Positions 47,461 to 47,601 of a stretch of 64,000 nucleotides of DNA are shown here, piece after piece. Both the position numbers and the translations under genes were made by a program. The notes beneath the pieces are model-generated. The model did not search any database and had not been told where the DNA came from. It was given only the letters and a program-made list of their open reading frames with translations. The stretch is from the sequence record ON210138.1. One strand, written 5' to 3'. Numbering within the stretch: the stretch's first letter is position 1; each line of letters opens with the position of its first letter. This DNA comes from Escherichia phage EC106.

Positions 47461-47601
47461 TTATCTTTGTAGATAAGCTACCCAGACTTGCTTAAGGTCT
47501 GTAGCGATGTGCCTTTTTGGGTTTAAATCTAGAATTTACCCTTTCACCCTTTGTGGTCGCATACTCACAGGTAAGCTTAATAACTTATCTACAAAGATAA
47601 T
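47461..47601. repeat. perfect 17 bp inverted repeat (TTATCTTTGTAGATAAG / CTTATCTACAAAGATAA) flanking a 107 bp non-coding segment
   Basis: Arms at 47461-47477 and 47585-47601 are exact reverse complements; interior has the hairpin cagac...gtctg and no ORF. Confidence 0.6.

What the first reader, a model, noticed from the sequence alone, without database searches (positions are those of the whole stretch)
47461..47601. Perfect 17 bp inverted repeat bracketing a 107 bp non-coding segment inside the tRNA array
TTATCTTTGTAGATAAG (47461-47477) and its exact reverse complement (47585-47601) would form a 17 bp terminal helix around an interior that itself has a cagac...gtctg hairpin. Possible readings: a long-stem small RNA, a miniature inverted-repeat element, or a nuclease or recombinase target.
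Basis: seen in the sequence. Interest (0 to 1): 0.6.

Follow-up and report, generated by a model that had tools for sequence, protein, structure and literature searches.

The report
Long-stem RNA ahead of phage tRNA-Lys
The inverted repeat is real: it forms the 22-24 base-pair closing stem of a conserved, roughly 145-nucleotide non-coding RNA that Felix O1-like phages very probably transcribe together with their tRNAs, beside a cluster of Y-RNA-like elements and a Ro60-like protein gene, and its exact job is still unknown.

Summary
The repeat exists. It is the longest inverted repeat in the window and beyond chance.

The window is a Felix O1-type phage and all its tRNAs are on the minus strand. 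Read on that strand, the repeat is the closing helix (P1, 22-24 bp) of a ~145-nt structured RNA that ends 4 nt before tRNA-Lys(UUU). About 250 Ounavirinae genomes carry one copy each at this site.

Structure is conserved while sequence changes: 99.6% of cells pair, 12 pairs show compensatory changes, and many G·U pairs work only on the minus strand. Three more distant phages have a 22-30 bp helix of unrelated sequence at the same place, with the same 9-nt hairpin loop (CUUAAGCAA).

It is not a mobile element, promoter word, terminator or coding sequence, and it matches no Rfam family.

Context: 1.1 kb upstream on the same strand lies a DUF2828 protein whose predicted fold matches Ro60. Between it and the repeat are four Y-RNA-like modules, one a YrlA-style tRNA mimic.

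Best reading: a processed operon RNA belonging to this Ro60/Y-RNA-like cluster, with P1 as a double-stranded processing and stability stem, possibly an RNase III site. Function is inferred, not shown.

The parts
47579..47602 (-). P1, 5' strand of the closing helix (RNA 5'-AAUUAUCUUUGUAGAUAAGUUAUU).
   Evidence: MFE fold and outer-helix extraction; RNAalifold consensus; pair counts.
47459..47482 (-). P1, 3' strand of the closing helix (RNA 5'-GGUAGCUUAUCUACAAAGAUAAUU). The innermost 5 pairs include 3 G·U pairs.
   Evidence: Eight of the 22 P1 pairs show changes on both sides; 99.6% of cells pair.
47483..47501 (-). P4 hairpin CAGAC-CUUAAGCAA-GUCUG, abutting the P1 3' strand. The 9-nt loop C[C/U]U[A/U]AGCAA is conserved in all five lineages.
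   Evidence: The stem covaries: CAAACC/GGUUUG in type II, CAGUC/GACUG in L136, GUUC/GAAC in L137, AAGUC/GACUU in L138.
47519..47541 (-). P3 central hairpin GGGUAAAUUCUAGAUUUAAACCC. AUUCUAGAUU is invariant in types I and II; CUAG is kept in L136.
   Evidence: RNAalifold pairs 68-69/89-90 and 73-76/81-84, with one compensatory pair each.
47544..47574 (-). P2, a variable 5' hairpin region (UGUG-AGUAUGCGAC-CACA). GAGUAUGCG is shared with L136.
   Evidence: Single-sequence MFE only; UGUG/CACA versus GGGG/CCCC in L136. This is the weakest part of the model.
47455..47458 (-). 4-nt linker UAAU between P1 and the mature 5' end of tRNA-Lys, which is the expected RNase P cleavage site.
   Evidence: Coordinates. 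The RNase P role is inferred from general tRNA biology.
47379..47454 (-). tRNA-Lys(UUU), always the gene immediately 3' of the element.
   Evidence: ARAGORN and Rfam. Same arrangement in L002-L005 and L136-L138.
47601..47738 (-). Module M2: a Y-RNA-like module enclosing a circularly permuted tRNA mimic (V hairpin, T arm, closed acceptor-like stem, D arm), as in YrlA. Its last 2 nt overlap the first 2 bp of P1.
   Evidence: (23 pairs, 15 with compensatory changes). A homologous module in L140 hits Rfam YrlA at 40.9 bits, E=1.5e-7, below gathering.
47746..47826 (-). Module M1: GAGC-AGA-AGACCAA-AUUCAGCAA...UUGGUCU-G-GCUC.
48175..48239 (-). Module M3, in the tRNA-Met to tRNA-Asn spacer.
48328..48406 (-). 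Module M4, in the tRNA-Glu to tRNA-Met spacer.
48738..50153 (-). 471-aa DUF2828 + DUF7788 (vWA) protein with a Ro60-like fold, at the head of the tRNA array.
   Evidence: Pfam; PHROG 850 'RNA-binding protein'; AF2 model with pLDDT 85. The top 11 Foldseek PDB hits are all Ro60/Rsr/TROVE, full length, TM up to 0.66. Sequence-level similarity is only marginal.
48599..48719 (-). Two sigma-70-like promoter matches upstream of tRNA-Pro. No terminator-like site lies on the minus strand between them and the element.
   Evidence: consensus matches only.
45873..45962 (-). Paralogous long-stem leader (26-bp stem) directly 5' of tRNA-Leu(UAG). It ends ...AAAGAUUUAAU|G, like the Lys leader.
   Evidence: The L136 copy has the stem CUUUGUAGAU/AUCUACAAAG, the same words as the Felix O1 repeat arm.

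Best explanation
The inverted repeat is the closing helix (P1, 22-24 bp) of a ~145-nt structured non-coding RNA encoded on the minus strand, the same strand as all the tRNAs.

Shown:
- The RNA has a conserved architecture: P1, a central hairpin with a UCUAGA apex, and a 3'-proximal hairpin with the 9-nt loop CUUAAGCAA.
- It always sits immediately 5' of tRNA-Lys(UUU).
- It is single-copy, non-coding, and conserved across Ounavirinae and more distant relatives.

Inferred:
- It is made as part of the polycistronic tRNA transcript that starts upstream of tRNA-Pro.
- RNase P cleavage at tRNA-Lys leaves it with a 4-nt 3' tail.
- The two-turn, nearly perfect double-stranded P1 brings the ends together. 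It serves as the double-strand-specific processing and stability element, most plausibly a host RNase III site. This would separate the RNA from the YrlA-like RNA upstream.
- The released RNA belongs functionally to the neighbouring cluster of Y-RNA-like modules that accompany the phage's Ro60-like protein. It shares with them the GACC...UUNAGCAA...GGUCUG word set.

Sub-claim confidences:
- Structured minus-strand RNA: about 0.9.
- Part of the Ro60-like/Y-RNA-like system: about 0.4.
- P1 is an RNase III site: about 0.4.
For: Identity and spread:
- The window is Felix O1-like, and about 250 Ounavirinae records carry one copy each at this site.

Structure conservation (types I, II and L136):
- 99.6% of 693 cells pair.
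- 12 pairs have changes on both sides.
- The covariation score is 0.264 versus 0.132 in shuffles (0 of 500 reach it).
- Slid controls pair at 52% or less.

Strand:
- About 95 of 693 cells are G·U pairs as read on the minus strand. They would be A·C mismatches on the other strand or in a DNA cruciform.
- Of the pair cells changed on one side only, 13 remain G·U or other standard pairs and 3 cells are unpaired.

Distant lineages:
- L136, L137 and L138 (Yersinia phage P778) have 22-30 bp helices of different sequence ending 0-10 nt before tRNA-Lys(UUU). All have the same 9-nt loop.
- Model R1 finds L136 at E=5e-12. With filters off, its top hit in 73 kb is the L138 site, at E=0.0098.

Folding:
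- z = -5.3 against shuffles.

Co-transcription:
- Promoter-like sites lie upstream of tRNA-Pro, with no terminator-like site on the minus strand before the element.

Context:
- A Ro60-fold protein lies 1.1 kb upstream on the same strand.
- Four verified modules have covarying outer helices.
- CAGAAGRCC occurs 5 times on the minus strand in 64 kb, 4 of them here, and 0 times on the plus strand.
- A YrlA-like tRNA mimic is present.
- The DUF2828 gene directly precedes a tRNA array in 6 of 7 loci examined.
- Chen et al. 2014 (PMC4201824) found Y RNAs within 4 kb of Ro60 genes and on the same strand.
Against: - No expression, end-mapping or binding data exist for this RNA. Nothing was found in the literature searched.
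- P1 itself has neither the bulged-helix Ro60 site nor the AGA/G internal loop of the neighbouring modules. No Rfam Y_RNA or YrlA hit covers the element.
- The covariation rests on few independent lineages (types I, II, L136, plus L137 and L138 by inspection). Alignment A5 was fitted to the model.
- The L137 match is not significant on its own (E=0.5).
- The Ro60 link of the protein is by predicted fold only; profile-to-PDB sequence E-values are 0.3-0.8.
- Phage SP116 lacks the element together with tRNA-Lys, so it is not essential for propagation.
- RNase III cleavage is inferred only from helix length and quality.
Confidence: 0.6

Rival explanations
1. It is purely a cis-acting processing spacer. 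The long duplex is an RNase III (or other) cleavage and insulation signal that frees tRNA-Lys from the upstream RNAs. The excised piece has no function of its own and is degraded.
For: A near-perfect helix of 22-30 bp is kept in every lineage and always ends 0-10 nt before a tRNA. A second such stem precedes tRNA-Leu(UAG). From my own knowledge, not checked here: RNase III processing upstream of tRNA-Gln in the phage T4 tRNA cluster, and the RNase III stems bracketing 16S and 23S rRNA.
Against: The interior is also constrained. The 9-nt P4 loop is conserved across phages whose P1 sequences are unrelated. The UCUAGA apex is invariant in types I and II, and the P3 and P4 stems covary. A mere cleavage stem would not need about 100 nt of conserved interior.
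Confidence: 0.2
2. It is a trans-acting base-pairing or kissing-loop RNA. The P4 loop CUUAAGCAA pairs with the conserved UUGUUGCU(UAGG) loop of the tRNA-Leu leader, or with another target.
For: In the window the two loops can form 9 consecutive pairs, and UUGUUGCU is conserved in the Leu leaders of Felix O1, Moogle and L136.
Against: In Moogle both loops changed but not in a compensatory way (U·U, U·U), and in L136 only 5 bp remain. A shared 5-nt AGCAA/UUGCU core can arise by chance.
Confidence: 0.08
3. It is a decoy for anticodon nucleases. P4 (CAGAC-CUUAAGCAA-GUCUG) mimics the anticodon arm of the adjacent tRNA-Lys (CAGA-CUUUUAA-UCUG) and soaks up a PrrC-like enzyme.
For: The stems and the CUU...AA loop ends are similar, and the element is constantly linked to tRNA-Lys(UUU).
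Against: The P4 stem changes in type II, L136, L137 and L138, while the tRNA-Lys anticodon stem stays the same where it was seen. The loop is 9 nt, not 7. The same UUNAGCAA word occurs in modules M1-M4, which have no tRNA-Lys link.
Confidence: 0.05
4. It is a DNA-level element: a miniature inverted-repeat transposable element, a recombinase or homing-endonuclease target, a cruciform, or a palindromic protein-binding site.
For: It has 19-bp perfect terminal inverted repeats and a central TCTAGA palindrome whose centre is 1 nt from the centre of the repeat.
Against: There is a single copy per genome at a fixed site, no target-site duplication, and no match in E. coli genomes. No empty site was found; the SP116 loss is a T-loop recombination that also removes tRNA-Lys. 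The helix extension and the one-sided changes use G·U pairs that have no meaning in DNA.
Confidence: 0.03
5. It is part of a small protein-coding gene (for example ORF94 of the original Felix O1 annotation) or of a promoter or terminator.
For: ORFs of 27-85 aa overlap it, and AF320576 annotates ORF94 here.
Against: The RefSeq record annotates only tRNA-Lys under the match, with no coding sequence. Close relatives differ by 1-2-nt indels inside the ORF. Type II sequences do not keep the frame. No promoter-like or terminator-like site falls in the element.
Confidence: 0.01

Closest known systems
Bacterial and phage Y RNAs (Rfam Y_RNA RF00019; YrlA RF02553; Chen et al. 2014, PMC4201824; Thermus phage phiLo Yrl1/Yrl2, PMC12135203)
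   Same: Size is about 100-150 nt. A long stem is made from the 5' and 3' ends and encloses a large multi-branched interior. The RNA is encoded about 1.1 kb from a Ro60-fold protein on the same strand, next to a bona fide YrlA-style tRNA mimic. It shares the GACC/GGUCUG and UUNAGCAA words with those neighbouring modules.
   Different: P1 is a nearly perfect duplex without the bulged or internal-loop protein-binding motif. It has no T or D arms and no Rfam hit. The partner protein is a DUF2828-type Ro60 look-alike, not an annotated TROVE protein. The RNA is embedded in a tRNA operon directly ahead of tRNA-Lys.
RNase III processing stems (16S/23S rRNA precursor stems; T7 early-mRNA sites; the phage T4 tRNA-Gln leader; from my own knowledge)
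   Same: About two turns of near-perfect dsRNA are formed by sequences flanking an RNA to be excised from a polycistronic precursor. The stem lies immediately beside a stable-RNA gene.
   Different: Cleavage has not been tested. The enclosed ~100 nt is neither rRNA nor tRNA, yet it is conserved in structure.
Phage T4 'species 1' and 'species 2' stable RNAs (rnaD, rnaC) in the T4 tRNA cluster (from my own knowledge)
   Same: Both are small stable RNAs of unknown function, co-transcribed and co-processed with phage tRNAs.
   Different: There is no detectable sequence similarity: blastn of the element against 50,697 phage records, a set not confirmed here to hold T4-like genomes, hit only Felix O1-like records. 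T4 has no Ro60-like gene that I know of.
Miniature inverted-repeat transposable elements and REP-like palindromes
   Same: It is a short non-coding unit bounded by perfect terminal inverted repeats.
   Different: It is single-copy at a fixed position, with no target duplication and no empty sites. Its evolution preserves RNA pairing, including G·U pairs.

Membership tests
Y RNA (general) | A long stem formed by the 5' and 3' ends, enclosing a large internal loop or branched interior | tested here: met
   P1 is 22-24 bp and encloses about 96 nt with 3-4 hairpins.
Y RNA (general) | A conserved Ro60-binding motif in the stem (bulged helix; GNCGAAN0-1G/CGAA in bacterial and phage Y RNAs) | tested here: not met
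   P1 is uninterrupted in type I and has no such motif. The CAGAAG-type motif with an AGA/G internal loop is found in neighbours M1-M4, not in this element.
Y RNA (general) | Encoded near (within 4 kb) and on the same strand as a Ro60 ortholog | tested here: met
   The element lies 1.1 kb downstream of 48738-50153(-) on the same strand. Caveat: the protein is Ro60-like by predicted fold, not by TROVE sequence signature.
Y RNA (general) | Physically bound by Ro60 | not testable with these tools
   This needs RIP/CLIP or EMSA.
YrlA (Rfam RF02553) | A tRNA-like domain (V, T, acceptor-like and D stem-loops) and a covariance-model match | tested here: not met
   cmscan finds no YrlA hit on 47440-47925 at E<=10. 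The element has no T or D arms. The upstream neighbour M2 does have them.
RNase III substrate | About 20 bp or more of largely uninterrupted dsRNA | tested here: met
   Helices are 22-30 bp with 0-3 small interruptions in five lineages.
RNase III substrate | Staggered double-strand cleavage by RNase III in vivo or in vitro | not testable with these tools
   This needs an rnc mutant or purified enzyme.
MITE | Terminal inverted repeats | tested here: met
   The arms are a perfect 19 bp.
MITE | Multiple dispersed copies | tested here: not met
   There is one place per record in nearly all of 249 phage records. The 17-mer occurs only at the two arms in the window. There are no E. coli genome hits.
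MITE | Target-site duplication and empty sites in relatives | tested here: not met
   The flanks ...CCATTA / ACCAG... are not duplicated. The SP116 deletion is a T-loop/T-loop recombination.
Intrinsic terminator or sigma-70 promoter word | A GC-rich stem plus U tract, or -35/-10 hexamers | tested here: not met
   No site falls in 47459-47602 on either strand.
tRNA or tmRNA gene | A cloverleaf detected by ARAGORN or the Rfam tRNA/tmRNA models | tested here: not met
   No call covers 47459-47602.
T4 species 1/2 stable RNAs | Sequence homology | tested here: inconclusive
   blastn of the element against the phage collection, which I assume but did not confirm includes T4-like genomes, returns only Felix O1-like records. 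No T4 rnaC/rnaD sequence was compared directly; structural similarity was not tested.

The most novel reading that the evidence does not exclude
Felix O1-like phages, and a wider set of tRNA-rich phages that carry a DUF2828 gene, encode a previously unrecognised Ro60/Y-RNA system woven into their tRNA operon. It comprises a Ro60-fold protein, four or more Y-like modules (one a YrlA-type tRNA mimic) released as tRNA spacers, and long-stem leader RNAs ahead of tRNA-Lys and tRNA-Leu. In this reading the inverted-repeat RNA is a new class of Ro60-associated RNA. Its two-turn duplex plus short 3' tail (left by RNase P) would be what the ring protein or RNase III recognises. That would couple tRNA supply, or tRNA damage control during infection, to an RNA-surveillance particle.
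Probability: 0.3. Interest if true: 0.8.

Novelty: new variant of a known kind. Interest (0 to 1): 0.6.

Why it matters
Phage tRNA arrays are usually read as lists of tRNA genes separated by junk spacers. Here the spacers of a classic typing and therapy phage (Felix O1) hold conserved structured RNAs, sitting behind a protein with the Ro60 fold.

If the RNA works with that protein, a large and well-sampled phage group carries a Ro60/Y-RNA-type particle. That would give an easy genetic system (Salmonella or E. coli plus Felix O1) for an open question: what Ro60 and Y RNAs do in bacteria and phages, and how they connect to tRNA processing, repair, or evasion of tRNA-targeting defences.

Even on the minimal reading, it defines an unannotated RNA family (not in Rfam 15). 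It also explains spurious ORF, 'tRNA-Thr', 'tRNA-OTHER' and permuted-tmRNA calls in this region of many deposited genomes.

Tried and rejected
- Rfam at permissive thresholds over 42-50 kb and over the Asp-Lys spacer found nothing on the element.
- Coding: the small ORFs overlapping it and the old ORF94 annotation were rejected because of indels among close relatives and loss of frame in type II.
- Promoter or terminator: none in the element.
- MITE or host repeat: single copy, no E. coli hits, no duplication.
- Empty site: SP116, VSe102 and ESCO56 were inspected. SP116 turned out to be a T-loop recombination deletion.
- An apparent ~500-bp insertion in GEP101 and S19cd ('2 pieces') was followed up in GEP101 only, where the Lys-Asp spacing is normal; it is an artefact of joined repeat matches. 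S19cd was not checked.
- The 131-nt 'tRNA-Thr(GGT)' annotated in REP7 and ARAGORN's permuted tmRNA in Moogle are mis-calls caused by the permuted tRNA mimic.
- Kissing-loop pairing between the Lys and Leu leaders: changes in Moogle are not compensatory.
- Anticodon-arm mimicry of tRNA-Lys: the P4 stem varies while the tRNA does not.
- Whole-element palindrome: only P1 and the P3 apex are symmetric.
- Literature searches for DUF2828, Felix O1 non-coding RNAs, and T4 stable RNA with RNase III gave nothing specific. One review (PMC10870794) was not held.
- A sequence-profile search of the protein against PDB gave only marginal Ro60 hits, so the Ro60 link rests on fold.

Full report
**1. The observation**

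The window sequence shows TTATCTTTGTAGATAAG at 47461-47477. The perfect repeat extends to 19 bp: AATTATCTTTGTAGATAAG at 47459-47477 and 47584-47602, with 106 nt between the arms. The repeat finder reports it as 22 nt at 95% complementarity.

It is the longest perfect inverted repeat with a spacer of 200 nt or less in the 64-kb window; the next longest is 13 bp. None of 200 first-order Markov simulations reached 19 bp. The 17-mer occurs nowhere else in the window. The interior cagac/gtctg hairpin is real (47483-47501).

**2. Where it sits**

ARAGORN finds 25 tRNA genes between 43.3 and 48.6 kb, all on the minus strand. The repeat lies in the 456-nt spacer between tRNA-Asp (47911-47987) and tRNA-Lys(UUU) (47379-47454). 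On the minus strand its 3' arm ends 4 nt before the 5' end of tRNA-Lys.

The region is 100% identical to Salmonella phage Felix O1. About 250 Ounavirinae records contain it, and nearly all have one place per record.

Sigma-70-like promoter matches lie upstream of tRNA-Pro (48719-48691 and 48628-48599, minus strand). No terminator-like site lies on the minus strand between them and the repeat, and neither kind of site falls inside the repeat. These are consensus matches only, but they fit co-transcription with the tRNAs.

**3. It is a structured RNA on the tRNA strand**

Two sequence types exist in Ounavirinae. Type I is Felix O1-like. Type II is found in Mooglevirus, Suspvirus and some Felixounavirus. 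They share the ends but have largely different interiors of the same length.

RNAalifold gives a closing helix P1 of 22 bp, a central hairpin P3 (apex AUUCUAGAUU, invariant) and a 3'-proximal hairpin P4. Pair counts were made on 23 sequences (types I and II plus the more distant L136):
- 99.6% of 693 cells form standard pairs.
- 12 of 33 pairs show changes on both sides.
- The covariation score is 0.264, versus 0.132 in shuffles (0 of 500 reach it).
- Sliding the partners by 1-3 columns drops pairing to 26-52%.

Caveats: the alignment was fitted to the model, and the changes trace to few branches.

The strand is decided by wobble pairs. About 95 of the 693 cells are G·U as read on the minus strand. 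These include the five innermost P1 pairs, which extend the perfect 19 bp to 24 bp in Felix O1. They would be A·C mismatches on the plus strand or in a DNA cruciform. Of the cells changed on one side only, 13 stay paired, mostly through G·U, while 3 cells in all are unpaired. The minus-strand fold has z = -5.3 against dinucleotide shuffles.

**4. More distant relatives**

I fetched contigs through homologues of the neighbouring protein. Three more lineages have the same kind of element directly upstream of tRNA-Lys(UUU):
- L136 (protein 64% identical).
- L137 (56% identical).
- L138 (Yersinia phage vB_YenM_P778, 53% identical).

Each has a long closing helix of 22-30 bp with 0-3 small interruptions, ending 0-10 nt before the tRNA. 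Its sequence is unrelated to the Felix O1 helix in L137 and L138 and partly related in L136. Each also has a hairpin abutting the 3' strand, with a 9-nt loop C[C/U]U[A/U]AGCAA.

A covariance model built only from types I and II finds L136 at E=5e-12. With filters off, its best hit in 73 kb of five other loci is exactly the L138 site (E=0.0098). The L137 site scores E=0.5. The P4 stem differs in every lineage: CAGAC/GUCUG, CAAACC/GGUUUG, CAGUC/GACUG, GUUC/GAAC and AAGUC/GACUU.

**5. What it is not**

- Not coding. The overlapping ORFs are 27-85 aa. The RefSeq record annotates only tRNA-Lys under the match, with none of the original 'ORF94'-type calls. Close relatives differ by 1-2-nt indels.
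- Not a mobile element. It is single-copy at a fixed position, with no target duplication and no match in 5,426 complete E. coli genomes.
- No empty site. The one genome found lacking it, SP116, lost it by recombination between the T-loop of the upstream tRNA mimic and the T-loop of tRNA-Lys. That deletion removed most of tRNA-Lys as well.
- Not in Rfam 15.

**6. The neighbourhood changes the picture**

The gene at the head of the array (48738-50153, minus strand, 471 aa) is DUF2828 + DUF7788/vWA in Pfam and PHROG 850 'RNA-binding protein'. An AlphaFold model (pLDDT 85, pTM 0.86) was searched against the PDB. Its eleven best matches are all Ro60/Rsr/TROVE structures, aligned over the full length, with probability 1.0 and TM up to 0.66. 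Sequence profiles see Ro60 only marginally (E 0.3-0.8). The gene directly precedes a tRNA array in 6 of 7 loci examined, and tRNAs lie within 4 kb in the seventh.

Between this gene and the repeat, the tRNA spacers hold four copies of a module: 5'-[4 bp]-AGA-AGRCCNN-UUMAGCAA ... NNGGUCU-G-[4 bp]-3'.
- M4: 48406..48328.
- M3: 48239..48175.
- M1: 47826..47746.
- M2: 47738..47601.

Their outer helices covary (UGAC/GUCA, UUGC/GCAA, GAGC/GCUC, UUAC/GUAA), while the AGA/G internal loop is constant. CAGAAGRCC occurs five times on the minus strand of the whole window, four of them here, and never on the plus strand.

M2 encloses a circularly permuted tRNA-like domain in the order described for YrlA Y RNAs (PMC4201824): V hairpin, T arm, closed acceptor-like stem, D arm. 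An unguided alignment of ten such modules from several phages gives 23 consensus pairs, 15 with compensatory changes.

In a 143-kb phage (L140), five such modules stand in tandem right after the DUF2828 gene. One hits Rfam YrlA over its full length (40.9 bits, E=1.5e-7, below the gathering score of 69). Chen et al. searched only phages annotated with TROVE proteins (22 phages), so this group was outside their survey.

**7. How the repeat RNA relates to these modules**

- It begins where M2 ends; the last two bases of M2's outer helix are the first two of P1.
- Its P4 hairpin, CUAC-AGACC-UUAAGCAA-GUCUGG-GUAG, uses the same words as the modules (AGACC, UUNAGCAA, GGUCUG).
- In L137 the 5' strand of the closing helix (AUUUGCAAAGAAUCUUUCAGCA) resembles the modules' 5' strand.

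So it looks like a paralogue that has acquired a long, uninterrupted closing duplex. It lacks the AGA/G internal loop that is the best candidate for the protein-binding site, so I do not file it as a Y RNA.

A second long-stem element (26-bp stem, 45873-45962) sits directly before tRNA-Leu(UAG). It ends ...AAAGAUUUAAU|G, as the Lys leader does. Its L136 counterpart even has the stem words CUUUGUAGAU/AUCUACAAAG of the Felix O1 repeat. Long-stem leaders are therefore a recurring design in this operon.

**8. Mechanism**

Shown: a conserved, single-copy, non-coding, structured RNA on the tRNA strand, fixed in position ahead of tRNA-Lys(UUU). It has a closing duplex of about two helical turns and a sequence-conserved 9-nt loop.

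Inferred:
- It is transcribed within the tRNA operon.
- RNase P cleavage at tRNA-Lys defines its 3' end with a 4-nt tail.
- The duplex is what is under selection for length and perfection. In enterobacteria that points to RNase III as the enzyme that would cut it and so separate the RNA from M2. Alternatively, the duplex acts as a stabiliser against exonucleases.
- The interior, with its module-like P4, acts with the Ro60-like protein and Y-like RNA set.

The main rival is a purely cis-acting processing spacer. I rate it lower because about 100 nt of interior structure and a loop sequence are conserved across phages whose P1 sequences have diverged completely.

A kissing interaction with the Leu-leader loop is possible in Felix O1 (9 bp) but is not maintained by compensation in Moogle or L136. 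An anticodon-arm decoy for tRNA-Lys nucleases is not supported by co-variation.

**9. Novelty and score**

Small RNAs in phage tRNA clusters, Y RNAs next to phage Ro60 genes, and RNase III stems are all known kinds. This RNA matches none of their defining sequence or structure signatures, and no Rfam family. The Ro60-like protein is a DUF2828 protein for which I found no literature link to Ro60.

I class the repeat RNA as a new variant of a known kind and give it interest 0.6. The higher-value possibility is that it belongs to an unrecognised Ro60/Y-RNA system interleaved with tRNAs across a large phage group. That is not excluded, and it is testable with standard Salmonella and E. coli genetics.

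Noticed in passing
window 47601-47738 (minus strand): This is a circularly permuted tRNA-like domain: a V hairpin with a CU-NNN-AA loop, T arm GAAGG-UUCGAUU-CCUUC, a 7-bp acceptor-like stem closed by a loop, and D arm GUGU-AAUGGUA-GCAC. An 8-bp helix AGACCGUU/AACGGUCU closes it. This is the YrlA layout. No Rfam hit was found in this window, but a homologous module in L140 hits YrlA (E=1.5e-7).
   Followed up: yes
window 48328-48406, 48175-48239, 47746-47826 (minus strand): Three further Y-RNA-like modules fill tRNA spacers. Each has a covarying 4-bp outer helix, a constant AGA/G internal loop, a 7-bp core and a UUMAGCAA word. The same module type occurs in L136, L137 and L139, and five times in tandem in L140 (7441-8130).
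   Followed up: yes
window 48738-50153 (minus strand): The DUF2828 + vWA protein at the head of the tRNA array has a predicted fold matching Ro60/Rsr over its full length. Homologues are widespread in tRNA-rich phages (2,564 hits) and usually lie directly upstream of the tRNA array.
   Followed up: yes
window 45873-45962 (minus strand); L136 11380-11467; L143 ~1000-1090: A second long-stem leader (26-27 bp) lies immediately 5' of tRNA-Leu(UAG) and is conserved in Moogle and L136. Its loop carries a conserved UUGUUGCU word, complementary to the AGCAA(CAA) word of the modules and of P4.
   Followed up: partly
window 47690-47706; L002, L005, L093, L137 equivalents: The 7-nt loop of the V hairpin keeps an anticodon-loop shape (C-U-NNN-A-A), but the middle triplet differs between phages (GGU, UAU, AUG, GCU). 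Some Felix O1-like genomes have a 6-nt loop or C at position 33. This explains the 'tRNA-Thr' and 'tRNA-OTHER' annotations. Whether the loop is read by anything is unexplained.
   Followed up: partly
window 47830-47885 (minus strand): Two further conserved hairpins sit at the start of the Asp-Lys spacer: GAGAGGGC-UAUUUA-GCCCCUC, and CUCCCUUAAAGAG...UUCUUUAAAGGAG. They are nearly invariant across genera in alignment A1. Function unknown.
   Followed up: no
L127 (phage SP116) 1486-1721: SP116 carries a natural deletion made by recombination between the T-loop of the tRNA mimic and the T-loop of tRNA-Lys, creating a chimeric tRNA-like gene. VSe102 and ESCO56 carry other large deletions in the array. 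The region is therefore dispensable for propagation and prone to T-loop recombination.
   Followed up: partly
window 47177-47205 (minus strand): This is the best sigma-70-like promoter match in the array (TTGACA-17-TATAGT, 11 of 12), just downstream of tRNA-Ile. It suggests the array is split into at least two transcription units.
   Followed up: no
window 46117-46638 (minus strand): A 173-aa ORF with a PD-(D/E)XK endonuclease domain (PF11645) lies inside the tRNA array. Its 5' part overlaps tRNA-Ser(UGA) at 46482-46568, so the real start is probably internal.
   Followed up: no
L004 (Moogle) 560-1308: ARAGORN calls a 749-nt 'permuted tmRNA' spanning three tRNA genes. This is almost certainly a false call triggered by the permuted T-arm/acceptor/D-arm order of the tRNA mimic. 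Weak Rfam permuted-tmRNA and tmRNA hits at window 46884-47278 are probably similar artefacts.
   Followed up: partly
L140 9682-9779 and 11393-12652: In the 143-kb phage, the Pro-Asn spacer is a 98-nt RNA with a 17-bp closing stem, a hairpin loop containing UAAGCAAG, and a T-arm-like hairpin. This is a possible distant analogue of the repeat RNA. An IS605 OrfB/TnpB-like gene sits just past the tRNA array.
   Followed up: no
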